From Bacilli bacterium (GTDB lineage Bacteria > Bacillota_I > Bacilli_A > RF39 > UBA660): DNA of 64,000 nucleotides. The position numbers and the translations under genes were made by a program. Below the pieces are notes generated by a model. The model ran no database searches and had not been told where the DNA came from. It saw only the letters and a list, made by a program, of their open reading frames with translations. The stretch lies in contig JAFXZI010000014.1 of NCBI GenBank assembly GCA_017541325.1, positions 45,741 to 109,740 on the forward strand, in the 5' to 3' direction. Shown one piece after another: positions 2,929 through 48,734 of the stretch (position 1 is its first letter; the number at the start of each line of letters is the position of its first letter).

Positions 2929-4992
2929 TTAGTGATCAACTACTTCGATATTACCGGCTTGATGTTCAATTGTTCCTGTTTTAAATTTTTGATTTGCAAT
3001 TTGAGCACCTGTAAATGAAGTCCAGTTCCACTCTTTTCCAGTATTATTAATGATTTTAACTAAATAAGGGTCATTTGTTGCTGTTTTTGCAAAAATACCA
3101 TTATTCATACTAGTAACATATTTTGGAATAGATACAGTACCATATGTTCTCCAAGTATATGTACCTGATAATTTAGTTATTTTAGTCCCGTCAGGGGCAG
3201 TTTCTGGAATTACAAGAGTTCCTGTTGTTCCTGGATTAGGTCCAACGAAATCTGATATTTCATTGTATAAAATAGTACCATTTGTAACTTTAAACATAAA
3301 TCCGTTATGAATATATTCACTATTATTTGTAATAACGTTATGATAAAAAGTATTAGTATCAATTGTTAAATTTGGTACATCTGATATAGGAGGCAAGTTT
3401 AATGTTTTAATATTACAACTTAAGAATGCTGCTCCTGAAATTTTTGTTAATGTTACCCCTTCTTTTTTTGCTGGTATAGTTAAAGCATAATTAGCAACTC
3501 TTCCTCCACCATAACTAACAATAGTTGTATAATCCCATTTTCCCTTTCCAGGATTATCTGGATCGGCTATTCTTTTATAGAAAATACCATCTATTCCATC
3601 CATTTTATTTTGAACAAATGCTCCTCCTCCAATTGATGTAACAGTATCAGGAATATCAATAGATGATAATTGATTTCCTCTAAATGCAGTTGAACCAATT
3701 GTTTTTAAATTTGCAGGTAATTTAACACTTGTTAAACTATTACTATAAAAAGCAGAACTATTAATTGTTTCTACTGAATCTGGAATAGTAACAGATCCTT
3801 TTAATCCAGCACTTTGGAAAGCACTACTATCTATAGTTTTTAATTGATATCCGTTTTTCCATTCAGGAATTACTATATTTTCTCTTGTTTCTCCACCATA
3901 ACCTACAATTGTAGTAAAGTCTTTTGATCCATTAGACTTTGTTTTATAAATAAATGCATTAGCATCAGTAAAATTATTGTTTGAGAATGCTGCTCCACCG
4001 ATTGTTGCATTACTATTTATATCGATATCTGATAAACAGTTACCTTGGAACGCATATGATCCAATACTCTTTAATGAAGCCGGAAGAGTTACATTACAAA
4101 TCTTATTACTTGCAAATCCATATGAACCTATTTTTTCTAGTCCTTCAGGAAGAATTAATTGTTGAATTTTTGAATTATAAAAACCAAAATCTTCAATTGT
4201 TTTAACTGACTTAGATAGTTTTACGCTTTTTAAATTATTTCCTTGGAATGCTGCATATCCAATTGTAACAATTCCATCATATGAACGAACACTTGTTATT
4301 CCTTTACCTTTAAACGCCCTATTTCCTATTCGTGTTACTTTTAAATTACCTATTTTAGAAGGTATATCAACATCTAATCCACAACTAGTATTATAGTTAG
4401 TTATTGTTATTGTCTCATCTTCATTTTCTTCCCACTCATAACAATCTTGTCCTTGTTCTAAGGTTATATTTACTGTAGGTTCTGTTTTTTCTTTATTTCC
4501 TTCTTCATCGACAATAACTATATTATCTCTTCCACCTATTGGGAAAGAATTATTAATAGTTTTATCATCAGTTACATAAATTTTACCAATTGATAAATCT
4601 TTTTCTGCAGTTAAATCAATCTTATGTCCTGTTTCATCTACACTTACCCAGTAATATTTAAATTCTTTTTTATTATTAATTACTACTACTACATAAGCCT
4701 CAACCCATTTTCCATAAGGACTATCTTTAACAGCACCATTATCTGTTTCTAGATTCTCTATATTATAATAATATGTAGTATTAGTATCTCTTGCTATTAA
4801 ATCATTTTTAGAAAGCATATTTGCACATATTTGAATGTACTCTCTAGCAGTATTAATATATAGTTTTCTTTTACTCTTGTCTATATAGTTTGATATTCCA
4901 AGAATTGCAATCATTCCCATTATACCTAATAATACAACTACTGCAATTATTTCTATTAAAGTAAATCCTTTTTGATTTTTCATAATATTCAC
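2929..4992 (-). CDS. prepilin-type N-terminal cleavage/methylation-domain protein fused to a BspA-type leucine-rich-repeat surface domain
   Basis: 687 aa. N-terminus MNIMKNQKG|FTLIEIIAVVVLLGIMGMIAIL is a classic type IV pilin/pseudopilin class III signal. The C-terminal half carries repeated ~22-aa LRR_5-like units (IGSYAFQGNCLSDIDI, IGGAAFSNNNF, IGSTAFRGNQLSSIDIP...). Confidence 0.75.
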   Translation of the reverse strand: MNIMKNQKGFTLIEIIAVVVLLGIMGMIAILGISNYIDKSKRKLYINTAREYIQICANMLSKNDLIARDTNTTYYYNIENLETDNGAVKDSPYGKWVEAYVVVVINNKKEFKYYWVSVDETGHKIDLTAEKDLSIGKIYVTDDKTINNSFPIGGRDNIVIVDEEGNKEKTEPTVNITLEQGQDCYEWEENEDETITITNYNTSCGLDVDIPSKIGNLKVTRIGNRAFKGKGITSVRSYDGIVTIGYAAFQGNNLKSVKLSKSVKTIEDFGFYNSKIQQLILPEGLEKIGSYGFASNKICNVTLPASLKSIGSYAFQGNCLSDIDINSNATIGGAAFSNNNFTDANAFIYKTKSNGSKDFTTIVGYGGETRENIVIPEWKNGYQLKTIDSSAFQSAGLKGSVTIPDSVETINSSAFYSNSLTSVKLPANLKTIGSTAFRGNQLSSIDIPDTVTSIGGGAFVQNKMDGIDGIFYKRIADPDNPGKGKWDYTTIVSYGGGRVANYALTIPAKKEGVTLTKISGAAFLSCNIKTLNLPPISDVPNLTIDTNTFYHNVITNNSEYIHNGFMFKVTNGTILYNEISDFVGPNPGTTGTLVIPETAPDGTKITKLSGTYTWRTYGTVSIPKYVTSMNNGIFAKTATNDPYLVKIINNTGKEWNWTSFTGAQIANQKFKTGTIEHQAGNIEVVDH

Positions 4993-12764: not shown

Positions 12765-13460
12765 TTAACTTAGTTTTAAATATTCTATTATTACCGGTGT
12801 AAGAATTAGTAATAATATTAATGGTATATAAAATAATACCGATATAACAGAAACCTTTACAGGTATCTTGTTAATGATTGCTTTTATTTTTAATACTTGT
12901 CTTTCTCTTATATAATCAATTTGAGTATATATATCTTCAATAATATCATTACCTAAAGTATTAGATTCAGATATATGAAGAATAATACTATTTACTTCAT
13001 CTGATGGAATTCTCTCTCTTAATGAATCAAGTGCTTCGTTAAGACCTTTTCCATATTTCATTTCTTCTAAAGTAATTTTAAATTCATTAGATAAATCATT
13101 ATCTACATTTATAGTTGCAACTTCTATAGAATCAACTATGCTTTTTCCTGATTCTAAGGAAAGTGCCATTACTTCAAAGAATTCCATAGCATTATACTCT
13201 AAATTATCTTTTCTTTTATTTATTGGAATCTCAATTAAATAATAAGTAATTAATTTAAAATAAATAAAAGTAATAATCGGACTAAGTAAATATCCCCAAT
13301 CAAGCATATATAATAACATGAAAAATATAATTAGAGAAGAAAAAGTTCTAAAGTTAAGAAAGAATATACTACTCATATTACTTTTTCCCATTTTTAATTT
13401 CTTTTCAAATTCTTCTATTTTTTTTCGAGGATAAATATAATACCAAAATTTATTTTTCAT
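12765..13460 (-). CDS. TadC-like type II secretion system F-domain membrane protein
   Basis: 231 aa membrane protein immediately after the tadB-like gene (4-nt overlap). T2SF-like region ...LSLESGKSIVDSIEVAT. Confidence 0.55.
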   Translation of the reverse strand: MKNKFWYYIYPRKKIEEFEKKLKMGKSNMSSIFFLNFRTFSSLIIFFMLLYMLDWGYLLSPIITFIYFKLITYYLIEIPINKRKDNLEYNAMEFFEVMALSLESGKSIVDSIEVATINVDNDLSNEFKITLEEMKYGKGLNEALDSLRERIPSDEVNSIILHISESNTLGNDIIEDIYTQIDYIRERQVLKIKAIINKIPVKVSVISVLFYIPLILLLILTPVIIEYLKLS

Positions 13461-14446
13461 AATTTCACCTCGATGTATACTATTTTTCTAATTATTATTA
13501 TATAGAATACATATAACATTATTATTAACACAAATGCTAAAAATCCTATGGTTGTAGTAAATAAAGTTACAAAGTATGCTGGATTAAGTAATAATAAGAA
13601 TAAAACTAATATCGGTGGCATTGAAACTAAAATACGATAAACGAATCTAGCTTGAGAAGAATTACTTTTAAGTTCTTCTCTTAATTTTTTTCGTGCTAAT
13701 GCATTTTTTTCAATAGAATCAAATACAGATACAATGTTTCCACCAGTTTTACTTAATACACTAATTGAACTAGTTAAGTATGTAGCTTCAACACTTTTTA
13801 CTCTTTTACTAAATCTTTTAAAAGCTTCTTCTATATCTAATCCAAATTTAATATCTTCACTTATACGTTTAAACTCTATAGATATAGGTCCTTGCATCTC
13901 TTTAGCAACTAAGTCTATAGCTTGAATAATACTTTTTCCTGATTTAAAAGCATTATTCATTATTACTATTGCTTCTGAGATATCATTATCTAGTCTATTA
14001 TCTTCATATTTTCCAAGTACATATAAATAAATATCATATAAGAAGAATCCTGCTAAGAAAGATATTAGAATATTTACGATAGTTAGAACATTTTCTTTAG
14101 CAAATGAATTACATATAAGTAATAATAAACATAATAATCCTATAAATATTTTTCTACTAATGTAATTCATATTTGTAAGAAGTTTTTTACTACCTGAATA
14201 CTTTATATATTTTTTACTATAATCATCAAATACATGAGTTTTTATTAGTCTCCTAGATAGTTTTTCTTCTATATTTCTATAACTACTTACTAAAACATCA
14301 ACAATAGAAAGAGTATCATTATCATAATCTACAGTATAATTATTAAATCTTTTAGTTAATTTATAACTGTTATATGATTTTATAAATAACCATACCAATA
14401 ATAGAATTAAACATATTAACAATAATACTAATAAATATAATTCCAT
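13457..14446 (-). CDS. TadB-like type II secretion system F-domain membrane protein
   Basis: 329 aa. TM segments flank a cytoplasmic T2SF-like domain (..NAFKSGKSIIQAIDLVAKEM.. and ..VLSKTGGNIVSVFDSIEKN..). Directly follows the CpaF-like ATPase. Confidence 0.6.
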   Translation of the reverse strand: MELYLLVLLLICLILLLVWLFIKSYNSYKLTKRFNNYTVDYDNDTLSIVDVLVSSYRNIEEKLSRRLIKTHVFDDYSKKYIKYSGSKKLLTNMNYISRKIFIGLLCLLLLICNSFAKENVLTIVNILISFLAGFFLYDIYLYVLGKYEDNRLDNDISEAIVIMNNAFKSGKSIIQAIDLVAKEMQGPISIEFKRISEDIKFGLDIEEAFKRFSKRVKSVEATYLTSSISVLSKTGGNIVSVFDSIEKNALARKKLREELKSNSSQARFVYRILVSMPPILVLFLLLLNPAYFVTLFTTTIGFLAFVLIIMLYVFYIIIIRKIVYIEVKL

Positions 14447-14459
14447 ATTTTACTCCTTT

Positions 14460-15812
14460 CTATTTTTTCTTAGTTGTAGTCTTTTTAGTAATTTTATTTT
14501 TTGCTTTAGATTCAAACATATCTAAAACAATTCCTTTATTTTTAATTTTTTCATATATTTTTGGTACATTTTCATAAAGAATAAATTCTCCGTTTACTTC
14601 TTTATTTTCAGTTATACCATGCTTTAAGAATGCAAATATATCTTCAATAATAATATTTTCTCCATCAAATCCAGTTATTTCTGAAATATTAGTAACTTTT
14701 CTTTTACCATCACTTAATCTTTCAACCGATATTACTATATCAATAGCACTATCTATATACCCTCTAATAGCTTTAATAGGCAATTCTACTTCGCTCATAA
14801 GAATCATTGTTTCAAGTCTATTTAATGCATCTTTTACTCCGTTAGCATGTAGAGTGGTTAATGATCCATCATGACCTGTATTCATCGCTTGTAGCATATC
14901 AAACGCTTCTTTACCACGAACTTCACCAACTATTATTCTATCAGGACGCATACGAAGAGAGTTTCTTACTAAATCTCTTATTGTTATTTCTCCTTCTTTT
15001 TCATAGTTTTCAGTTTTAGTCTCAAGTGAAATAACATGTTCTTGTTTAAGACGAAGTTCAACTGCATCTTCAATAGTAATTATTCTCTCATCATTAGGAA
15101 TAGATCCTGAAAGAACATTTAAAAGTGTTGTTTTACCAGAACCAGTTCCTCCACATATTAAGATATTTAATCTTGCTTTAATACAAGCATCTAAGAAAGT
15201 AGCCATATATGGAGTTAATGTACCATTTCCTATTAAACTATCCATATCTTCAACATCATCTCTAAATTTACGAATAGTTACAACTGGCCCCTTTACTGAT
15301 AATGGTGGAATAATAGCATTTATTCTAGATCCATCAGGAAGACGAGAATCTACCATTGGGTTACTACTATCAATAGTTCTACCTAGTGGTTGAATGATAC
15401 GACTTACTGTTCTTATTATATGTTCATCATTAATAAATGAAACATCATAATCACGAGATATTATACCATCTACTTCAATATATATTTCATCAGGAGAATT
15501 AATCATTATCTCTGTTACATTTTTATCTTTTAATAATTCTGTAATAGGTCCAAATCCATTTAATTCATTATTAATAAGATTTTTTAAATAGTCTCTTTGT
15601 TCATTTAAAAGATCATATTCAACTGCAATTCTATCTATTACTTCTTCTATATTTTCTTCTTCTATTTCATGAGAATCAATTAATTCTTGAATAATCTTAA
15701 TACGTAATTTATCAAGTTCTTCTTTATTCTCAAAAATATCATAATCAGTATTAGTATAAGTATTGGAACTATTATCTTCTAAATTGAACTCTTCCATCCA
15801 ACTATTATTCAT
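14460..15812 (-). CDS. cpaF: CpaF/TadA-type pilus assembly ATPase (VirB11/GspE superfamily)
   Basis: 450 aa. Walker [17 protein letters not shown], plus the [34 protein letters not shown] block characteristic of CpaF/TadA. Confidence 0.9.
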
Positions 15813-16563
15813 AATCTTCCTCCTCTACTAAACTACGTATATTATTACTAAATGTTTCATATTCTTTTTTAGCTTCACCAGTAAATATTTCATTAAAATT
15901 AATTATTTTTTCATCCATAACTAATTCATTATAATTATTTATAAATAATTTATTACTTATAGAATAATCTAATTTTTTAATTACTGTTTTTATATCATAA
16001 ATATCATAATTATCTTTAATATCTCGATATGATTTATTTAGTAGTACAACAACATTATCTACTTTCATATTTTTAGTTATAGAAATGAAACTCTTATTAA
16101 TTTCTAAATTATAAGCATCATCTCCAACTATATCTATAATCTTCATACTTTTATCAAAAAGAAGCATATTAAGTGGGCTTAAAGTATTATTTGTATCAAT
16201 TACTATATATTCATATGAATACATTAATAAATCTAAAACTTGAGACAATGCTTTTACATCTATTTTAGATGATAATCTCATATCTATAGGAGCAGGAATA
16301 AAAGATAAGTTATCTCTTACATAATAAGTATATGGAGTAGAACTTTCATATTTTTTATTTCTTAAATCATCACACATATTATAAATAGTCTTTTTAGGTT
16401 TAATACCTAGTGCAAAAGCAAGATTTCCTCCATATAAATCTAAATCTATTAAAAGAGTACTTTTATTTTTACTTAAAATATCTGCAATCATCATTGAAAC
16501 AGTAGTTTTACCTACTCCACCTTTCATAGATGTTACAGTTATTATCTTAGCTTTATTCTTCAT
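15805..16563 (-). CDS. CpaE/TadZ-like ParA/MinD-family ATPase
   Basis: 252 aa. Deviant Walker A SMKGGVGKTTVS at the N-terminus. Overlaps cpaF by 8 nt. Confidence 0.75.
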   Translation of the reverse strand: MKNKAKIITVTSMKGGVGKTTVSMMIADILSKNKSTLLIDLDLYGGNLAFALGIKPKKTIYNMCDDLRNKKYESSTPYTYYVRDNLSFIPAPIDMRLSSKIDVKALSQVLDLLMYSYEYIVIDTNNTLSPLNMLLFDKSMKIIDIVGDDAYNLEINKSFISITKNMKVDNVVVLLNKSYRDIKDNYDIYDIKTVIKKLDYSISNKLFINNYNELVMDEKIINFNEIFTGEAKKEYETFSNNIRSLVEEEDYE

Positions 16564-17341
16564 CTAACCAACTCCTATTTTTATTATAATTATTTATTAT
16601 ATTATTTTCTGTTAATAACATATCATATGATTTTACATATTTAATATTCTTAGTATTAATAATTAAATCTCCACTTAAATTATCTATTTCTTTTATAAAG
16701 TCTCCATTTAAATATAGACGTGCTTTGTTAGTACCAACTAAATCTATAATATTTCTTTCATTAACTGGACCAATTAAAATATCATTTAAATACAGACTAT
16801 TATTACTTATAAAGAACCTACTATTACCAATCATAAATTGAGTATCATCTAAATTAGTAAAACCAATTTCTAAAGAATAATTTTCTAAATCAAAATTCTT
16901 TATATTAATTACACCATTAATTATGTTGTAGCCTCTACCATCTAAACTATTTACTTCATTATTATTTATTTCAAAATACATTAAAATATTACTTGTATAT
17001 TTTACTTCTTTTTCTGATGTAACAGTATATTTATCCATACCTATAATTTTTCCAAATATAGGTTTTATATCTTTATGCGTTTTTATATAAATAGATCTGT
17101 TTTCTATTTTTACTTCATCTATAACGATATCTTCATCATTTAAACTATATAATAATTTAATATCTTCATTAGAAACATCAATCTTTTTATTTAAACTAGT
17201 TAAAATATCTTTATTAACGTTATCTAAATAATTTTTATTATAAAACATCAAAGATGAATCTATAATAAAAGCTAAAGCAAGTGTAATAATAGGTAGTAAA
17301 AGTAAGAATAATACCAGTACTTGTCCTTTATTATTCTTCAT
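16553..17341 (-). CDS. TadE/TadG-like pilus assembly protein (pseudopilin-like N-terminus)
   Basis: 262 aa. N-terminus MKNNKGQVLVLFLLLLPIITLALAFIIDSSL resembles a TadE-like N-terminal domain. Overlaps neighbours on both sides. Confidence 0.5.
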   Translation of the reverse strand: MKNNKGQVLVLFLLLLPIITLALAFIIDSSLMFYNKNYLDNVNKDILTSLNKKIDVSNEDIKLLYSLNDEDIVIDEVKIENRSIYIKTHKDIKPIFGKIIGMDKYTVTSEKEVKYTSNILMYFEINNNEVNSLDGRGYNIINGVINIKNFDLENYSLEIGFTNLDDTQFMIGNSRFFISNNSLYLNDILIGPVNERNIIDLVGTNKARLYLNGDFIKEIDNLSGDLIINTKNIKYVKSYDMLLTENNIINNYNKNRSWLDEE

Positions 17342-17684
17342 TATTAATAGTCCTTTCTACTTTAACACTATATGGATCTTTTATTATTCTATTAATTCCT
17401 GGAGTCATTAAATCAACATCTTTAGTAATAATAATTGTTGTAATAGAACCCTTATCAGTAATATCAACATTAATATTTTTGTATCCAATACTAGCTAGAT
17501 ATGACTCTATTTCATCATTATCACTATTCTTTTGATATAGTGAAATAACTTCATTACTAACTCCTTCTAATTTACTATTTTCAAGTATTATTCTTCCTAA
17601 ATCTAAAAATGAAAAGAGAAGTAATATTATTACTGGTAATATAAGAACAAATTCAATAAGTGCTTGACCCTTATTATTCTTCAT
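17331..17684 (-). CDS. TadE-like pseudopilin
   Basis: 117 aa. N-terminus MKNNKGQALIEFVLILPVIILLLFSFLDLG matches the TadE/TadF motif (G-Q-A-L-I/V-E-F, hydrophobic helix). Confidence 0.65.
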   Translation of the reverse strand: MKNNKGQALIEFVLILPVIILLLFSFLDLGRIILENSKLEGVSNEVISLYQKNSDNDEIESYLASIGYKNINVDITDKGSITTIIITKDVDLMTPGINRIIKDPYSVKVERTINNEE

Positions 17685-24127: not shown

Positions 24128-25699
24128 TTATAAATTAAGTTCTTTAGTTGTCAACTCTTTAGTTGCTTCAAGTTCAGGATCAGGATCTGGTTCTACTGGC
24201 GGTTCACCATTTCTTCTTCTTTCCCTTCTTGGCTCTACGATTAATTGTTTTTCTTCTTTTTTCTTTTCTACTTTTTCTTCTATTATTTTATCTTCTTTAG
24301 GATTCTTTTCTTCTTTTTTTCTTTTTATCCATAATACAAGTATTACTATTAAAATAGCAAATATTAAGAATAATTCTAATAATAAGAAGAAACTAACTCT
24401 TTTATCTTTTTCAATAACGATTGTATATTTACTAGACTCTCCATCAATTCCTGTAATAGTTATCTCTATTTCATCCCCAACTTTTAAGTCTTTTATTAAT
24501 TCTTTATTATTATTAATATCAGGATTCATAGTAACTGTTACTTCATCTTCCGGACTTACTGTTGTGTAATAAATTTTTAAATCTTCAAATTTCAATCTAT
24601 TATAATTTATCTTATATTGATAATTATTTTTATCAAAACTTATATCATATCCTTTTATAGATAATGATTTTAACATCTTACTAATACTTTTATCTAGATT
24701 GTTAACTATTACTGTATATGTAGCTTTTTCTCCTTTTTCAGAAGTAACTATAATTTTAAATTCATTATCTCCAACAAGTAATTTTTGTGGACCAGTAACT
24801 TCTGCTTTAGCATTAGGATCATTTGTTATCGCTTCTATTTTAACAGTCTCTGCTTTATATTTCTTAATAGTATATTTATATTTATTGGATTTAAATTCTT
24901 CAAGAGCAGTACCATCTATTGTAATTCCTGATAAAGTTGCATCAGTACTTCTTGTATCTTCTCTAGTAATATTAAGAGTATATATTTGTTCAGTACCACT
25001 TTCAGATACAACATTTAATTTAATTGTATTATTTCCATATTCCAAATTAACTGTTCTAGGTCCTAAACCATTTTTAAATGATGCTTTAGAAGATGTAGTT
25101 GTTGCTTCTATCTTAGCATTTGCAATATCACCTGTAACACTAACATCATAAGTTAAATTTTCAGAATGAAATTTTTCTACACTCACACCATTTATTTTAA
25201 TACCAGATAAACTAGCATCACTTGATTTGATGCTGATGGTTTTAGTGATTTTAGTACCCAGTTGTGTCACATCTCCAGCAGCATTTGTTATTTGTGTTGT
25301 ATTAAATGTTAGATTTGCACTATTTGCAGTTGGTTTTGATGTTACTTTGAAAACTAGCCTTCCAACTTCATTAGAGCAATTACCGGTTTTACAATTAAAT
25401 ACTACATCTTTACCAGAAATCCCGGGTTCTGATTGATTTTCCCAATTCCCAGATTGTTTAATAGCTTTAAAAGTAAACACCTTAGAATCATAACTAATTT
25501 GGGTAGTAAATGTAGTACCAGTCGTTGCTTGTATCCCATTAACATAAATTATATATTCAAATTCTTCAGATGGAGATACTGCAGTCGGACCAGTTATATT
25601 AACTTGAGGTTGACTTTGTGCATAAGCAAAAATAGGCATAAAAAATGCTAATATGCTTACTAGAATCCCCTTTACTTTCATCTTTTTTATTCTATTCAT
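24128..25699 (-). CDS. membrane-anchored cell-surface protein with three cadherin-like beta-sandwich repeats
   Basis: 523 aa. Signal peptide (MNRIKKMKVKGILVSILAFFMPIFAYAQ). Three repeats of the S-L-S-x-I-x-I-x-G-x-x-[LI]-x-x-F...Y-x-Y pattern (SDASLSGIKINGVSVEKF, TDATLSGITIDGTALEEF, LKSLSIKGYDISFDKNNYQY). C-terminal TM helix plus K/E/R/P-rich cytoplasmic tail. Confidence 0.65.
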   Translation of the reverse strand: MNRIKKMKVKGILVSILAFFMPIFAYAQSQPQVNITGPTAVSPSEEFEYIIYVNGIQATTGTTFTTQISYDSKVFTFKAIKQSGNWENQSEPGISGKDVVFNCKTGNCSNEVGRLVFKVTSKPTANSANLTFNTTQITNAAGDVTQLGTKITKTISIKSSDASLSGIKINGVSVEKFHSENLTYDVSVTGDIANAKIEATTTSSKASFKNGLGPRTVNLEYGNNTIKLNVVSESGTEQIYTLNITREDTRSTDATLSGITIDGTALEEFKSNKYKYTIKKYKAETVKIEAITNDPNAKAEVTGPQKLLVGDNEFKIIVTSEKGEKATYTVIVNNLDKSISKMLKSLSIKGYDISFDKNNYQYKINYNRLKFEDLKIYYTTVSPEDEVTVTMNPDINNNKELIKDLKVGDEIEITITGIDGESSKYTIVIEKDKRVSFFLLLELFLIFAILIVILVLWIKRKKEEKNPKEDKIIEEKVEKKKEEKQLIVEPRRERRRNGEPPVEPDPDPELEATKELTTKELNL

Positions 25700-33764: not shown

Positions 33765-33796
33765 AAAAAGGAAGTTTAATTACTTCCTTTTTATTA

Positions 33797-36700
33797 TTAA
33801 TAGTAAACAGTTGCTCCGTTACATGCTACATCTCCATAAGAAGCTGTACATGAGCTTGTTGGATAATATGTACCTGTTCCTGACCAACCATTCCATATTT
33901 TACATCCCCAAGCTGCACTATAACATGATTTTGCACATGTATCACATACAAACTCGGTTGTAGATTGATAATGACATGTACAGAATTGTTGTGAATCATC
34001 AGTACCTGTTCCTGTATCAGAACAAGAACATACGTGAGGACTACAGAACGCTCTACATCTTGCTTCAGCTCCTGTACCTCTAAAGGCATTGTCTATTGTT
34101 TTTCCAACACAGTTACAATCTTCTGTTCCACATACACTTGAACTTGGTCCACCCCAATTATGTTGATAACATGTATTCTTTTGATACATATATGCTGATG
34201 ATACAGATACAGTACAACTATTTGTTAGCCCTGCACCGTTTGTACATGTATATGTTTTATCAGATGTTTGATTAGTATTTGAGAAAGAAGCTGTTACAAC
34301 ACCACTTGTACCGTCTGCACATGTTGCTCCTGTTGTTACCCCATTTGAATGATATTGATGGGATTTACTTGGTGTACATGACGGAACAGATGCATCTCTC
34401 TTAAATTTTATTGAACATGTATTAGTGTTTCCAGCATTATCTTTTATATGTCCTGTATATGTTACACTTTTTGTATCAGTAGTATGTGATGCTGTTTTGC
34501 TTCCAGTTACTGAATCTATTCCATATGATGCTGTTCCACTTAAGTCATCTCCAGTATTACCTTTTCCACTTACAAAGCTAACACTTACATTTGATGTATA
34601 CCAATTATCATTTCCAACTGTTCCAGATGTAGTTAACTTACAATATGGTTTTGTTTTATCTAGTTTAAACCAAATCTCACATTTATTTGTTCTTCCTGCT
34701 TTATCCTTTATATATCCATAATATGTTATTCCTGATGTTGTTGTATTAGTAGATTGTGTTTTCTTTGTGCTTTTATTATAACTTGGCGTTGCTGATGTTG
34801 TTATATCCCATGATGCTTTATCACTCATTGAATTATCTTTTTTAACATCTTCATATTTTTTAAATGTTACATCTACATTTCCTTCTTTATACCAATTATT
34901 ATCTCCTTTAGTACCAGTAAGTTGTAATTCACATGTAGGATTTTGTGAATCTTTTTTAACTACACTACTACAATCTTTTAAGTTTCCAGCATTATCTCTT
35001 ACATATCCATACCATGTATGACTTGTTGTATCTTTTGTTTGAGTTCCTGTATCATTTCCATTATATTCTAATCCACTTGAATTTTTTAATCCATAGTTTC
35101 TTGTTCCTGATTTTGTATATTTATTTGCAATTTCAGCATTATCATCTTTTGTTAATTTAACTGGAACATTTTCCCAGAAATAATCATTTTCATGTCTTAC
35201 GACTCTATCACTACCAAATGTTATTGTACATTTTGGCTCTGTTTTATCTATATTTGTTATTTCTCTTGTTTCTGGTAAACTTTCATTTCCTGATGTATCT
35301 TTTACTTTCATTATTACTGTTGCAAGAGTTGGATAAGTATAACTATTATCTTTTTGCCATGGATTATTATCAAATTTGTAGTCTCCTCTTCCTGATACTG
35401 AGTCTGTTGCATTTATATATAATGTTACATCTCTATTTGTATAATATCCTACTGTATCATCTCTTGTTAATAATTCTATTCTTGTTACATTATTTAACTC
35501 TGTTGCACTTGCAAATGATATTTCTAAATTACTAAATGAAGTTGGAGTTGCAAAATAGTTTCTTGCCTTTGATGTTGATGTTGGAATTGTTACAGTTAAT
35601 GTTTTATTTTTTACTGTATCTTTTATTGTTGCAGTTCCACCCTTTCCTGATGCCATATATACATATACTCCATATATATTACCGTACTCACCAGTTATGC
35701 TCGTTAAACTAATTTTTGTTGATGTTTTAGAAGCAAGTAAATCAGCTTTATCTTTTTCTGTACCTACTCCATATACTACTGTTCCATAGTCTATTGATTT
35801 AATAACTGGAATTACTGGATCATATGGAATTTCTCTATAACATGTTCCTACATTTCCAGCATTATCTTTTACATATCCATATACTGTTGTTATACCATCT
35901 TGTACTTCATATTCTGTTTCTTTATTAAAGTCGTAATTACTTCTACTAACTCCCATTCCATATGTTGCAATTCCACTTGTATCTCTTTCATCTACTTTTA
36001 ATTTAACTACTGGTCTTGGACTTGCTTTATACCATCCATTTTCCCCCATAGTTCCTTCAACTTCTAATGTACATTTTGGTGGTGTTTTATCAATATAAAC
36101 ATCTACTGGACACGCATTTGTTTTTCCAGCATTATCGGCAATTGTTATTGTTCCAGTTTCTCCTTCTTCAGTGAACTTCTTTGTAAACGTATCTTGAACA
36201 CATCCTGTACAATTATCACTACATCCAATAGTTATAGTTCTATCTTTATTTGTCCACACTTTAGAATCTCCTTGTGCAACACCACAAAGAGGAGGTTCAT
36301 CATCCATTTCTTCAGTACAAACACGTTGTGGTGGAATTCTTTTACTTAAATCTTCACATTTTCCTGATTGATAATCTCCACAAACTAAACATACTTCATA
36401 TGATAAATTTGTTATGTTTGGTCCTTCATTTTTAACTAAAACGAAACTTTGGAAAGGATCACAATCTTTAGAATCATCTTTAGGATCTCTTAACTTATTT
36501 GAATATCCTGTAGATATTAATTCTGATAAAGTTACTTTTTTATACTTATCTACTCCAGGAATGCAAATAGTATCATTTTTTTCTACACATTCAGTCATTA
36601 GATTTTGTGCAGAAACCTTCATATCAGCTTCATACATTTTATAAGTATTATTTCTTGTATCAATTATGTACCTTGAAATAGCAGGGAATAATAAACCCAT

Positions 36701-36943
36701 TAATAAACCTAGCAATACTACTACTGCTAGCATTTCTATCAAAGTAAAACCAAAACCAATTGTACCATTCTTTTTTTCATGTTTCTTTGGAGTTTGGTCT
36801 TTTCTTTTTATATTTGTTTGTAAAACTTTAATATCTTTTTTAGGTTTTTTAGTAGTTTTTGCTTCATTAGTAACCTTTTTTGTAATCTTTTTATTGTTAA
36901 TACTACTACTTTGTCCCCTTTTTTTAGTTTTATTCTCACTCAT
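33797..36943 (-). CDS. giant surface protein: K-rich 62-aa leader plus prepilin-like GFTLIE hydrophobic segment, ~100-aa Cys-pair repeat modules, extremely Cys-rich C-terminal domain
   Basis: 1048 aa. ...KKNGTIGFGF|TLIEMLAVVVLLGLLMGLLFPAIS pilin-type N-terminal domain. Four modules each ending YGY[VI][KR]D[NK]AG[NR]-x3-C (VYGYVKDNAGNVGTC, WYGYVRDNAGNLKDC, YYGYIKDKAGRTNKC, YTGHIKDNAGNTNTC). The last ~150 aa contain ~30 Cys and are Gly/Ser/Thr-rich. Confidence 0.7.
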   Translation of the reverse strand: MSENKTKKRGQSSSINNKKITKKVTNEAKTTKKPKKDIKVLQTNIKRKDQTPKKHEKKNGTIGFGFTLIEMLAVVVLLGLLMGLLFPAISRYIIDTRNNTYKMYEADMKVSAQNLMTECVEKNDTICIPGVDKYKKVTLSELISTGYSNKLRDPKDDSKDCDPFQSFVLVKNEGPNITNLSYEVCLVCGDYQSGKCEDLSKRIPPQRVCTEEMDDEPPLCGVAQGDSKVWTNKDRTITIGCSDNCTGCVQDTFTKKFTEEGETGTITIADNAGKTNACPVDVYIDKTPPKCTLEVEGTMGENGWYKASPRPVVKLKVDERDTSGIATYGMGVSRSNYDFNKETEYEVQDGITTVYGYVKDNAGNVGTCYREIPYDPVIPVIKSIDYGTVVYGVGTEKDKADLLASKTSTKISLTSITGEYGNIYGVYVYMASGKGGTATIKDTVKNKTLTVTIPTSTSKARNYFATPTSFSNLEISFASATELNNVTRIELLTRDDTVGYYTNRDVTLYINATDSVSGRGDYKFDNNPWQKDNSYTYPTLATVIMKVKDTSGNESLPETREITNIDKTEPKCTITFGSDRVVRHENDYFWENVPVKLTKDDNAEIANKYTKSGTRNYGLKNSSGLEYNGNDTGTQTKDTTSHTWYGYVRDNAGNLKDCSSVVKKDSQNPTCELQLTGTKGDNNWYKEGNVDVTFKKYEDVKKDNSMSDKASWDITTSATPSYNKSTKKTQSTNTTTSGITYYGYIKDKAGRTNKCEIWFKLDKTKPYCKLTTSGTVGNDNWYTSNVSVSFVSGKGNTGDDLSGTASYGIDSVTGSKTASHTTDTKSVTYTGHIKDNAGNTNTCSIKFKRDASVPSCTPSKSHQYHSNGVTTGATCADGTSGVVTASFSNTNQTSDKTYTCTNGAGLTNSCTVSVSSAYMYQKNTCYQHNWGGPSSSVCGTEDCNCVGKTIDNAFRGTGAEARCRAFCSPHVCSCSDTGTGTDDSQQFCTCHYQSTTEFVCDTCAKSCYSAAWGCKIWNGWSGTGTYYPTSSCTASYGDVACNGATVYY

Positions 36944-36999
36944 AGTATCACCTACTATAACAATTATATCAAAAATAGTATAAAAAAAGAAATATAATA

Positions 37000-47912: not shown

Positions 47913-48734
47913 ATGATAAATATGAATAAAAACAAATTAATAATAGTTAGTATTATTTGTATCTTATTATTTTCTTTTAGTTTTTATTATATATCTTTTA
48001 ATAAAGAGAAAAATAATAAAGAAATTAATAAAAAAGACGAACCAATTATAAATAATGAAAAAGATGATAATAAGAAAGATGAAGAAACGCAAGTAATAGA
48101 TAGTACAGAAACAAAAGATGATAAACAAGAAGTAACCGAAACAAATACTAATACAACTACAAACAATACTAATACTACTAAAGAAACAACTACTAATACT
48201 AAAAAGAGTAATACAACTTCTACTAGCAAAAGTAATACAACAAAAAAGAGTAATACTAATACTAGTACAAATACAAAAAAACCAACTAGTCAAAATAATA
48301 CTAATCATTCTAGTAGTACTACTCAACAAAATAATAACACAAGCACTAGCAGTAACAACAATAATACAAGTAGTAGTAATAACAACACTTCTACTACACC
48401 ACCAGAAACACCTTCAACACCTACAATTACATATTCTTGTCCTAGTGGATATACTCTAAATGGTACTAAATGTACAATAACTGTAAATGCTAGTTTAGTA
48501 TGTCCAGATAATACAACGGAATCTATTAATGATAGTTGTATCAATCTAAGTGAAGGGTATGAAAGTCAAAGCGAAGAATGTCCAAGTGGATATATTATGA
48601 TTAAAATGATTGGTATTGGTATACCTGATAAATATATGTGTCATCCTGCACACTCAAAAGTATATAGATGTGAAAGTGGTTATACTTTAAGTAATAATAA
48701 ATGTACTAAAACAATTGATGCAACACAAAATTAA
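47913..48734 (+). CDS. membrane-anchored protein with Thr/Asn/Ser-rich mucin-like stalk and C-terminal Cys-repeat domain
   Basis: 273 aa. N-terminal TM segment (LIIVSIICILLFSFSFYYI). About 110 aa of T/N/S low complexity. C-terminal tandem motif C-x-SGYTL-x-[GN]-x-KCT (CPSGYTLNGTKCT, CESGYTLSNNKCT). The overlapping minus-strand ORFs are low-complexity mirror frames. Confidence 0.6.
   Translation: MINMNKNKLIIVSIICILLFSFSFYYISFNKEKNNKEINKKDEPIINNEKDDNKKDEETQVIDSTETKDDKQEVTETNTNTTTNNTNTTKETTTNTKKSNTTSTSKSNTTKKSNTNTSTNTKKPTSQNNTNHSSSTTQQNNNTSTSSNNNNTSSSNNNTSTTPPETPSTPTITYSCPSGYTLNGTKCTITVNASLVCPDNTTESINDSCINLSEGYESQSEECPSGYIMIKMIGIGIPDKYMCHPAHSKVYRCESGYTLSNNKCTKTIDATQN
48090..48420 (+). repeat. 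low-complexity coding repeat (acaa/acta/aata-rich) encoding the T/N/S stalk
   Basis: Degenerate short repeats (aatactaatact, acaactac...) are visible in the DNA. They translate to TNT/NNT/SSS runs. Confidence 0.6.

What the first reader, a model, noticed from the sequence alone, without database searches (positions are those of the whole stretch)
33797..36943. Giant pilin-like surface protein with repeat modules and an extremely Cys-rich C-terminal domain
Seen in the sequence:
- A hallmark type IV pilin N-terminal segment (G-F-T-L-I-E-M-L plus ~20 hydrophobic residues) is preceded by an unusually long 62-aa Lys/Thr-rich leader. There is no in-frame ATG/GTG/TTG closer to the Gly.
- Four ~100-aa modules each end in YGY[VI]KDNAGN-x3-C and start with a P-x-C-T/E motif (paired cysteines).
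- A ~150-aa tail contains ~30 cysteines (..CNCVGK..CRAFCSPHVCSCSD..FCTCHY..CDTCAKSC..).

Established knowledge: prepilin leaders are normally 5-30 aa. Cys-dense extracellular domains are uncommon in anaerobic Gram-positives.

Inference: this may be a pilus-tip or minor-pilin adhesin. Alternatively it may be a type-II membrane-anchored surface protein that merely borrows the pilin helix.
Basis: partly seen in the sequence, partly recalled or inferred. Interest (0 to 1): 0.55.

Follow-up and report, generated by a model that had tools for sequence, protein, structure and literature searches.

The report
Giant modular type IV pilin adhesin
This gene from an uncultured gut bacterium (class Bacilli) encodes a 1048-residue surface protein in which a genuine type IV pilin module carries a long stalk of disulfide-stapled Ig-like domains, a lectin-like domain and a fast-evolving cysteine-rich tip, so it is an unusually large new example of the known "modular pilin" adhesins rather than a new kind of system.

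Summary
The ORF (33797..36943, minus strand, 1048 aa) is real. It is identical to GenBank MBR4262872.1 from a 'Bacilli bacterium' MAG and is collinear with about 1000-aa homologues, so it is not a gene fusion.

**Confirmed**
- Prepilin motif G65|FTLIE70.
- A 65-aa Lys-rich leader with no nearer ATG, GTG or TTG start.
- Repeated modules with paired cysteines.

**Corrected**
- There are seven Ig-like modules, not four.
- An unnoticed jelly-roll domain (aa 376-497) resembles carbohydrate-binding modules.
- The tail holds 18 Cys in its last 150 aa, not about 30.

**New evidence**
- AlphaFold gives a 54-residue pilin helix, a small α/β head and confident β-sandwich modules. The leader and tail are not modelled.
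- The head domain also occurs as stand-alone 134-141-aa pilins, and in giants up to 3792 aa.
- Across the family, each module's first and last cysteines co-vary, which points to a disulfide within each module.
- Conservation falls from the base (70-96% identity) to the tip (17-30%).

**Best reading**
This is a modular minor pilin that presents a glycan- or surface-binding tip. Whether it sits on a filament or stays anchored in the membrane is unresolved. About 84 kb of sequence holds only a Tad locus and no PilD/ComC-type genes.

Verdict: a new member of a known kind, of moderate interest.

The parts
36948..36953 (-). Shine-Dalgarno sequence AGGTGA, 4 nt upstream of the ATG start
   Evidence: Read directly from the sequence.
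33797..36943 (-). Whole ORF, 1048 aa including the stop codon. It equals GenBank MBR4262872.1 and encodes the giant modular prepilin.
   Evidence: The identical 1048-aa product is recorded on 12 contigs.
36749..36943 (-). Leader peptide, aa 1-65: 19 Lys, net charge +16, ending in Gly65. It is predicted to be disordered and cytoplasmic.
   Evidence: (pLDDT below 50).
36581..36748 (-). Class III signal-peptide core and alpha1 helix, aa 66-121 (F66-T-L-I-E70 plus a hydrophobic stretch). This part is the membrane anchor and filament-core helix.
   Evidence: TIGR02532 hit. AF2 helix at 68-121. F66, L68 and E70 are invariant.
36329..36580 (-). Pilin globular head, aa 122-205: a small beta-sheet with six nearly invariant Cys (119, 127, 161, 185, 188, 196).
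   Evidence: The same domain forms stand-alone 134-141-aa pilins.
36080..36328 (-). Module M0, aa 206-288: a beta-sandwich with six Cys and the conserved motif GCSDxxxGC.
35819..36079 (-). Ig-like module M1, aa 289-375, with Cys291 (P-x-C) and Cys368 (AGNxxxC).
35453..35818 (-). Inserted jelly-roll domain, aa 376-497, without Cys. It has the fold class of carbohydrate-binding modules (CBM32, CBM6, F-type lectin, discoidin).
35240..35452 (-). Ig-like module M2, aa 498-568. It lacks both cysteines.
34940..35239 (-). Ig-like module M3, aa 569-668 (Cys572 and Cys658).
34649..34939 (-). Ig-like module M4, aa 669-765 (Cys671 and Cys755).
34385..34648 (-). Ig-like module M5, aa 766-853 (Cys768 and Cys843).
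34169..34384 (-). Module M6, aa 854-925: a shorter beta-sandwich with five Cys.
33800..34168 (-). Cys-rich tail, aa 926-1048, with 15 Cys. The middle is hypervariable. The C-terminal end is conserved: GC..W.GWSG..YP..SC......C..ATVYY.
   Evidence: (pLDDT below 50).
33765..33792 (.). Bidirectional terminator-like hairpin between this gene and the convergent tmcAL-like gene.

Best explanation
The gene encodes a modular type IV pilin, that is, a pilin module with adhesive modules grafted onto it.

**Proposed mechanism**
- The prepilin is inserted into the membrane with its 65-aa Lys-rich leader in the cytoplasm.
- A prepilin peptidase cuts after Gly65 (inferred).
- The mature 983-aa, 107-kDa protein is held by its hydrophobic alpha1 helix and small pilin head. 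That head also makes ordinary small pilins in related bacteria.
- The protein is then incorporated, most probably at the tip, into a type IV filament (inferred).

**The extracellular part**
- Behind the pilin head, seven Ig-like beta-sandwich modules form a stalk roughly 25-30 nm long.
- Most modules are stapled by a disulfide between the first and last strands. This should make the stalk mechanically inextensible.
- The stalk carries a jelly-roll domain with the fold of carbohydrate-binding modules. It ends in a fast-evolving, disulfide-rich tip.
- The lectin-like domain and the tip are the likely ligand-binding parts, so the protein would attach the cell or pilus to glycans or surfaces in the gut.

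**Shown:** the sequence features, the folds, the family relationships, the cysteine covariation and the conservation gradient.
**Inferred:** cleavage, filament incorporation, disulfide formation and the ligand.
For: **Pilin module**
- Class III motif: TIGR02532 scores 17.6 against a cut-off of 16.3.
- F66, L68 and E70 are invariant, and G65 is nearly invariant, in 48 relatives.
- The AF2 model has helix 68-121 and a beta-sheet head at pLDDT 70-89.
- The head alone (aa 90-215) finds 191 cluster representatives among 1.84 billion. These include complete stand-alone pilins of 134-141 aa and giants up to 3792 aa.

**Stalk and grafted domains**
- Domains 219-912 are confident beta-sandwiches that match tandem-Ig strings such as GhpA, gp130 and titin.
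- The start and end cysteines of one module co-occur in 416 of 457 modules (odds ratio about 98). Across neighbouring modules the figure is 203 of 340 (odds ratio about 1.7).

**Family evidence**
- Identity to orthologues falls from 92-96% (alpha1N) and 70-84% (head, M0, M1) to 17-30% (M6 and tail).
- Full-length collinear homologues exist.
- The modular-pilin concept and its adhesin role were established for S. sanguinis PilB and PilC (PMC8179133, PMC9934059).
Against: - No PilD/ComC-type peptidase, PilB/ComGA ATPase or PilC/ComGB platform was found in the 64-kb window or in about 20 kb of flanks. Only a Tad/Flp locus is present.
- Neither this gene nor any of seven sampled relatives lies in a pilus operon.
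- The 65-aa leader is far longer than any I know of in characterised pilins.
- PF07963 scores below its gathering threshold.
- A related protein group carries the same Ig modules on an ordinary N-terminal membrane anchor, so the stalk does not need a pilin.
- The CBM resemblance is at fold level only: Foldseek E is 4e-3 or weaker, TM is about 0.4, and there is no Pfam hit.
- The tail could not be modelled.
Confidence: 0.6

Rival explanations
1. The protein is a membrane-anchored surface protein that is never polymerised. In this reading the class III signal peptide and pilin head serve only as an export and anchoring device, with or without cleavage. The roughly 30-nm Ig stalk would span the cell wall to display the tip. 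The archaeal sugar-binding proteins that carry class III signal peptides (own knowledge) would be the analogue.
For: - The gene is an orphan, and no T4aP or Com machinery lies in about 84 kb.
- These genomes carry several paralogous giant N_methyl proteins scattered among housekeeping genes. There are three in 23 kb of L004, and a second one (687 aa, LRR_5) in this window.
- A related group uses the same modules on a plain transmembrane anchor.
- The stalk is long enough to cross a Gram-positive wall (inference).
Against: - E70 (Glu5) and the whole pilin head, including its six Cys, are conserved. A mere anchor would not need them.
- The same head forms ordinary small pilins.
- In this reading the CBM-like domain, which sits close to the membrane-proximal end, would be buried in the wall.
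Confidence: 0.3
2. The protein is a minor subunit or cargo of the Tad/Flp filament encoded 16-21 kb away in the same window. It would be processed by a TadV-type peptidase.
For: - The Tad locus is the only type IV filament machinery seen near the gene: TadB, TadC, CpaF, a TadZ-like protein and two TadE-like proteins, with an Flp pilin in the flank.
- The TadE and Flp proteins here have G|QAL[IV]E motifs, similar in outline to G|FTLIE.
Against: - The N-terminus is of the GFxxxE type and matches GspG, ComG and PilA models, not the Flp or TadE models.
- The head is a canonical alpha/beta pilin head, which Flp pilins lack (PMC12786226).
- The gene is not part of the locus.
- Relatives' loci show no linkage to Tad genes.
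Confidence: 0.07
3. The finding is an annotation artefact: two genes fused by a frameshift or assembly error, or a wrong start codon so that the long leader is not translated.
For: - One metagenome gene caller started the protein at TTG codon 68, giving 981 aa.
- An out-of-frame ATG followed by an A7 run lies 10 codons before Gly65. One extra A would give a normal 11-aa leader.
Against: - Homologues of 990-994 aa are collinear over 94% of the length.
- The TTG start would delete the invariant G-F-T.
- The upstream ATG has a strong Shine-Dalgarno sequence, and the 64-codon extension is open with P about 0.001.
- The identical 1048-aa product is recorded on 12 contigs and is NCBI's own call.
- Other family members also have leaders of 21-65 aa.
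Confidence: 0.03

Closest known systems
Modular type IV pilins PilB (vWA module) and PilC (lectin module) of Streptococcus sanguinis (PMC8179133, PMC9934059)
   Same: [quoted passage not shown]
- The host is a monoderm.
- One grafted domain is lectin-like.
- The proposed role is a filament-presented adhesin, probably at the tip.
   Different: - This protein is two to three times larger: 983 aa when mature, against about 50 kDa for PilB.
- It has a seven-module, disulfide-stapled Ig stalk and a Cys-rich tip in place of a single vWA or ConA-like module.
- Its leader is 65 aa, against 7 aa.
- The gene is not in a pil operon.
- None of its extra domains matches a Pfam model, so it would have escaped the InterPro survey in that paper, whose largest case was 860 aa.
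Tip minor pilins CofB (ETEC) and TcpB (Vibrio cholerae) of type IVb pili (as discussed in PMC8179133 and PMC5207764)
   Same: A pilin module is followed by beta-repeat and beta-sandwich domains on a linker. These large minor pilins are thought to sit at the pilus tip and mediate ligand or adapter binding.
   Different: - Those are diderm T4b systems with clustered genes.
- They have only two extra domains and no tandem Cys-stapled Ig array.
- No sequence similarity was detected here.
Tandem-Ig fibrous surface proteins, for example the grappling-hook protein GhpA of Aureispira (PDB 9flp, 9fly)
   Same: These are the best Foldseek matches to the stalk (E 1e-13 to 1e-10). Both are strings of Ig-like beta-sandwiches that form an extended fibre.
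   Different: The similarity is structural only, at 11-13% identity. GhpA has no pilin module and uses a different secretion route.
Sortase-assembled Gram-positive pilins and adhesins with intramolecular isopeptide bonds (own knowledge)
   Same: Tandem Ig-like domains are each covalently locked between the first and last strands. This shields the domain from mechanical unfolding. Here the inferred lock is a disulfide.
   Different: The bond chemistry differs (disulfide against isopeptide). There is no LPXTG sorting signal, since the protein ends in ...ATVYY. Anchoring is N-terminal through a pilin helix rather than C-terminal to peptidoglycan.
CBM32, F5/8 type C (discoidin) and F-type lectin domains, also called galactose-binding-domain-like
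   Different: Identity is only 6-15%. There is no Pfam hit. Foldseek support is weak, with E 4e-3 or worse and TM about 0.4. Ligand-binding residues were not assessed, so sugar binding is only a lead.

Membership tests
Type IV pilins / class III signal peptide proteins (IPR012902, TIGR02532, PF07963) | N-terminal motif: Gly or Ala at -1, hydrophobic residue at +1, Glu at +5, then about 20 hydrophobic residues | tested here: met
   The motif is G65|F-T-L-I-E70. TIGR02532 scores 17.6 bits against a cut-off of 16.3. PF07963 scores 15.6, below 21.2. F66, L68 and E70 are invariant in 48 relatives.
Type IV pilins / class III signal peptide proteins | Hydrophilic leader peptide of limited length, typically about 5-30 aa, ending in Gly | tested here: inconclusive
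   The leader is hydrophilic, basic and ends in Gly, but it is 65 aa long. The family median is 8 aa, and 11 of 79 relatives have 20 aa or more. The review PMC10191384 says only that the length is variable.
Type IV pilins / class III signal peptide proteins | 'Lollipop' fold: an alpha1 helix of about 53 residues packed on a globular head built on a beta-sheet | tested here: met
   The AF2 model has helix 68-121 and strands at 134-138, 167-172 and 180-185, at pLDDT 70-89. The head is homologous to stand-alone 134-141-aa pilins.
Type IV pilins / class III signal peptide proteins | Cleavage (and N-methylation) by a dedicated prepilin peptidase | not testable with these tools
   No peptidase gene was found in the window or its flanks. 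The rest of the genome could not be read.
Type IV pilins / class III signal peptide proteins | Polymerisation into a filament by an ATPase and platform machinery encoded in the genome | tested here: inconclusive
   Only a Tad-type machinery (CpaF, TadB, TadC) lies within about 84 kb. No PilB/ComGA or PilC/ComGB was found. Related Bacilli commonly carry both tad and comG (PMC12786226).
Modular pilins (sensu Raynaud et al. 2021, PMC8179133) | An N-terminal pilin module fused to one or more modules that are not specific to pilus biology | tested here: met
   The pilin module spans aa 66-205. Seven Ig-like modules, a CBM-like jelly roll and a Cys-rich tail follow it.
Competence pilin ComGC / T2SS pseudopilin GspG | Full-length match to the equivalog models | tested here: not met
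   ComGC scores 14.9 bits against a cut-off of 75. GspG scores 23.7 against 88.85. Both matches cover only the first 26-27 residues after the cleavage site.
Flp/Tad (type IVc) pilins and TadE/F pseudopilins | Flp or TadE N-terminal motif (PF04964, PF07811); short proteins without a beta-sheet head | tested here: not met
   There is no Flp or TadE hit. The true TadE and Flp proteins of this genome have G|QAL[IV]E[FY].
LPXTG sortase-anchored adhesins | C-terminal LPXTG motif followed by a hydrophobic stretch and a basic tail | tested here: not met
   The protein ends ...CNGATVYY, with no C-terminal hydrophobic segment.
CBM32 / F5/8 type C (for the insert, aa 376-497) | Sequence-profile match and a conserved sugar- or Ca-binding site | tested here: inconclusive

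The most novel reading that the evidence does not exclude
In this lineage of uncultured low-GC gut Firmicutes, the pilin module may have become a general display platform for a large, rapidly diversifying repertoire of giant adhesins. The evidence includes:
- several paralogues per genome;
- family members of 600-3800 aa with interchangeable tips (Cys-rich, TSP1-like, ephrin-receptor-like, LRR);
- genes scattered outside pilus operons.

Such a platform would functionally replace sortase-type anchoring. The exceptionally long basic leaders (up to 65 aa) would then act as a cytoplasmic regulatory or targeting pro-peptide that controls when a given adhesin is processed and loaded onto the filament.
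Probability: 0.2. Interest if true: 0.65.

Novelty: new member of a known kind. Interest (0 to 1): 0.4.

Why it matters
**What is new here**
- Modular pilins are a recognised way for bacteria to make type IV filaments sticky. The characterised examples carry one or two grafted domains.
- This protein and its roughly 190 family clusters extend that design to 100-400-kDa fibres made of disulfide-locked Ig domains.
- Most of them come from metagenomes or metagenome-assembled genomes, and almost none carries a name.
- Their extra domains match no Pfam model, so domain-based surveys would miss them.

**What it would give if confirmed**
- A candidate colonisation factor for a poorly known group of gut Bacilli and Clostridia.
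- A natural example of an extensive extracellular disulfide architecture in an anaerobic monoderm.
- A test case for how large a cargo, and how long a leader, the prepilin peptidase and assembly machinery can handle.

It does not reveal a new kind of system.

Tried and rejected
1. **Tail-only homologue search** (aa 905-1048). It found nothing, not even the protein itself, so no deeper alignment of the tail could be built. In the full-length AF2 run the tail stayed at pLDDT 29-40.
2. **Diversity-generating retroelement or cassette variation of the tail.** A blastn of the gene against the whole window found only 26-69-nt repeats that encode the YGYVKDNAGN motif. There is no template repeat, and I noticed no reverse transcriptase among the window's ORFs, most of which I read only as translations.
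3. **My first disulfide model.** I proposed a C-x12-C staple between neighbouring modules, with Cys368 and Cys572 closing an inserted loop. Family covariation rejects it: the odds ratio is 1.7 between modules and about 98 within a module.
4. **The ~755-aa relatives as degenerate pilins.** These begin MYTDEEERRGLPIKTF... BLASTP of our pilin module against P0071 gave no significant match, with E 3.3 or worse. They share only the Ig modules.
5. **Sequence searches of PDB.** I tried the whole protein, the module profile and the insert profile. Only the alpha1 helix matched, to Geobacter pilins, at E 0.011.
6. **Search for a prepilin peptidase.** I used a GxGDxK motif on six-frame translations of the window and all fetched loci and read all ORFs. 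None was found. The motif scan is crude.
7. **Context of relatives.** I looked for linkage to pilus genes around six giant homologues and three small pilins. None was found, and the small-pilin contigs were short.
8. **The afdb50 fold library** was not available.
9. **Upstream DNA comparison** with the closest orthologue. There is no alignable homology upstream of the G-F-T codons, so the origin of the leader is unresolved.
Full report
**Observation**

The ORF is at 33797..36943 on the minus strand and encodes 1048 aa. Its ATG is preceded by a strong Shine-Dalgarno sequence, AGGTGA, 4 nt upstream. A bidirectional terminator-like hairpin at 33765-33792 separates the gene from the convergent tmcAL-like gene.

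The N-terminus reads ...KKNGTIGFG65|F66TLIE70MLAVVVLLGLLMGLLFPAIS. TIGR02532 (prepilin-type cleavage/methylation domain) scores 17.6 bits against a cut-off of 16.3. Pfam N_methyl scores 15.6, below its cut-off of 21.2. The GspG and ComG models match only the first 26-27 residues after the cleavage site, far below their cut-offs.

No in-frame ATG, GTG or TTG lies between codon 2 and Gly65. The leader is therefore 65 aa, not 62. It has 19 Lys and a net charge of +16. A 64-codon open frame in DNA of this composition has a chance probability of about 0.0013-0.0015.

The protein has 40 Cys. The last 150 residues contain 18, not about 30.

**Identity and integrity**

The exact 1048-aa sequence is GenBank MBR4262872.1. 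It is annotated 'prepilin-type N-terminal cleavage/methylation domain-containing protein', comes from a MAG named 'Bacilli bacterium', and is recorded on 12 contigs, the longest 324 kb. A second gene caller started the same gene at TTG codon 68, which would remove the invariant G-F-T.

A search of 5.8 billion clustered proteins gave 145 homologues. Almost all are unnamed, and most come from metagenome assemblies. The closest (58% identity, 990-994 aa) are collinear over 94% of the length. The gene-fusion or frameshift explanation is therefore excluded.

Most relatives have short leaders such as MNKKG|FTLIE, and the family median is 8 aa. Eleven of 79 have 20 aa or more, including one of 65 aa. 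The four closest relatives have 5-aa leaders, so the long leader is specific to this lineage.

An out-of-frame ATG followed by A7 lies at 36780-36771. One extra A would give MKKKNGTIGFG|FTLIE. This may be a relic of the ancestral start. I found no sign of phase variation.

**Architecture**

AlphaFold2 was run with a 48-sequence alignment and gave a mean pLDDT of 75.
- Residues 1-65 are disordered.
- A continuous helix spans 68-121.
- A small beta-sheet head spans about 134-200.
- Confident beta-sandwich domains run from 219 to 912.
- The tail, 916-1048, has pLDDT below 50.

Seven modules (M0-M6) align to the consensus P-x-C...WY...D..SG...Y...G.xKDNAGN-x3-C....D.T. Foldseek against PDB matches the stalk to tandem-Ig fibres: GhpA at E 1e-13, then gp130 and titin.

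**Cysteines**

Modules M1 and M3-M5 each have exactly two Cys: one in the P-x-C at the first strand and one after AGN-x3 on the last strand. M2 lacks both.

Across about 120 relatives, the two positions of the same module agree in 416 of 457 modules (odds ratio about 98). The end of one module and the start of the next agree in only 203 of 340 (odds ratio about 1.7). It rejects my initial inter-module staple model.

Such a bond would carry tensile load past the domain and make the stalk mechanically inextensible. This is an inference, by analogy with the isopeptide bonds of sortase pilins (own knowledge).

**The tail**

A tail-only search found no relatives. Aligned with the nearest homologues, the tail has a conserved start and a conserved C-terminal end (GC..W.GWSG..YP..SC......C..ATVYY-COOH) around a hypervariable Cys-rich middle.

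Identity to the 58%-identical orthologues varies by region:

| Region | Identity |
|---|---|
| alpha1N | 92-96% |
| head, M0, M1 | 70-84% |
| insert, M2, M3 | 63-77% |
| M4, M5 | 35-47% |
| M6 | 26-30% |
| variable part of the tail | 17-23% |

In other family members the distal part is replaced by TSP1-like repeats, SCGVESYKSC repeats or about 2500 aa of C..GYT....C repeats (P0184, 3792 aa). No template repeat or other sign of a diversity-generating retroelement was found. A conserved base with an exchangeable, fast-evolving tip is what one expects of an adhesin whose base docks into a conserved machine.

**Is the pilin module genuine?**

The head alone (aa 90-215, without the hydrophobic helix) was searched against 1.84 billion representatives. 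It gave 191 hits at E 1e-3 or better and 52 at 1e-10 or better. These include complete stand-alone pilins of 134-141 aa that end just after the CLxCxxY..C motif (P0137, P0172, P0200), as well as proteins of 600-3800 aa. F66, L68 and E70 are invariant across the aligned family.

The N-terminal 140 residues of the mature protein are thus a real pilin module onto which other modules are grafted. This is the definition of a modular pilin (PMC8179133). That paper's InterPro survey found more than 1,200 such proteins, the largest being 860 aa.

**Machinery and context**

- The neighbours are housekeeping genes: pyruvate kinase, AspRS, HisRS, GreA, ProRS and tmcAL.
- The window also holds a Tad/Flp-type locus at 12765-17684, with TadC, TadB, CpaF, a TadZ-like protein and two TadE-like proteins.
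- An Flp pilin lies about 8 kb beyond the window start.
- No prepilin peptidase and no PilB/ComGA or PilC/ComGB was found in the window or in about 20 kb of flanks.
- The six giant homologues and three small pilins whose contexts I read are all orphan genes among housekeeping or sporulation genes. One 23-kb locus carries three giant N_methyl proteins.
- A second large prepilin-type protein with BspA-type LRRs lies at 2929-4992.
- Related small-genome Bacilli typically carry both tad and comG systems (PMC12786226), so a ComC/ComG or Pil system may lie elsewhere in this genome. I could not check this.
- A related group of about 755 aa carries the same Ig modules on an ordinary N-terminal membrane anchor that has no detectable similarity to the pilin module. 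The stalk is therefore a portable cassette.

**Interpretation**

The best-supported reading (confidence about 0.6) is a modular minor pilin and adhesin. The steps are:
- membrane insertion with the basic leader in the cytoplasm;
- cleavage after Gly65;
- docking through alpha1 and the head into a type IV filament, probably at the tip;
- a stalk of about 25-30 nm made of disulfide-locked Ig domains, carrying a lectin-like domain and a variable Cys-rich tip that bind ligands.

The folds, the family relationships, the covariation and the conservation gradient are shown. Cleavage, filament incorporation, disulfide formation and the ligand are inferred.

The main rival (about 0.3) is a membrane-anchored protein that is never polymerised. 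It is favoured by the orphan, multi-paralogue gene arrangement and by the absence of nearby machinery. It is disfavoured by conservation of Glu5 and of the whole pilin head. Assembly by the neighbouring Tad system (about 0.07) and an annotation artefact (about 0.03) are less likely.

**Novelty**

This is a new, unusually large member of a known kind, the modular pilins. Notable but not category-breaking features are:
- a 65-aa leader;
- seven Cys-stapled Ig modules;
- extra domains that match no Pfam model;
- a family reaching 3792 aa;
- genes scattered outside pilus operons.

Interest is moderate, at 0.4. The most novel reading still open is that this lineage uses the pilin module as a general display platform for a diversifying adhesin repertoire, with long leaders acting as regulatory pro-peptides. 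I give that a probability of about 0.2.

Noticed in passing
window 2929..4992 (-): A second large prepilin-type protein of 687 aa (MNIMKNQKG|FTLIEI...). N_methyl scores 29.5 bits, and the protein is fused to BspA-type leucine-rich repeats (LRR_5, E 1.4e-49). This genome therefore puts pilin N-termini on more than one kind of large surface protein.
   Followed up: partly
window 12765..17684 (-), and L003 18481-18672: A Tad/Flp (type IVc) filament locus: TadC, TadB, a CpaF ATPase, a ParA/TadZ-like protein and two TadE-like pseudopilins. The Flp pilin (MRNNKKG|QALVEY...) lies separately, about 8 kb beyond the window start. No TadV peptidase was seen.
   Followed up: partly
window 36771..36780 (-): An out-of-frame ATG followed by an A7 run sits 10 codons before the cleavage-site Gly. 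One extra A would give a normal 11-aa leader (MKKKNGTIGFG|FTLIE). It may be a relic of the ancestral start. The same 1048-aa product is recorded on 12 contigs, so there is no evidence of phase variation.
   Followed up: partly
L007 (about 10 kb beyond the window end): A cluster of WXG100 and DUF4176 genes interspersed with about 500-aa proteins of unknown function, which looks like a type VII secretion or toxin region.
   Followed up: no
window 47913..48734 (+): A secreted 273-aa protein with a Thr/Asn-rich low-complexity region followed by CPSGYTLNGTKC and CESGYTLSNNKC motifs. These resemble the C..GYT....C repeats that form the 2500-aa tail of the 3792-aa relative P0184.
   Followed up: no
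L004 13283-13846, L006 15286-15705, L012 13367-13945, L005 13521-14297, L013 6506-7324: In more distant homologue loci, the giant pilin gene is followed 10-20 nt later by a small N-terminally anchored protein (139-272 aa, no Pfam hit). This may be a co-transcribed partner. It is absent downstream of the window gene and of its closest orthologue.
   Followed up: partly
L004, L006, L012: Several homologues lie next to spoIIGA (Peptidase_U4) and a sigE-like sigma factor gene, and near Coat_F genes. The family's hosts therefore include spore-formers, and some copies might be expressed during sporulation.
   Followed up: no
window 24128..25699 (-): A 523-aa surface protein with three Cadherin-like beta-sandwich domains and a C-terminal membrane anchor followed by a charged tail. 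It is another non-LPXTG surface protein in the same region.
   Followed up: no
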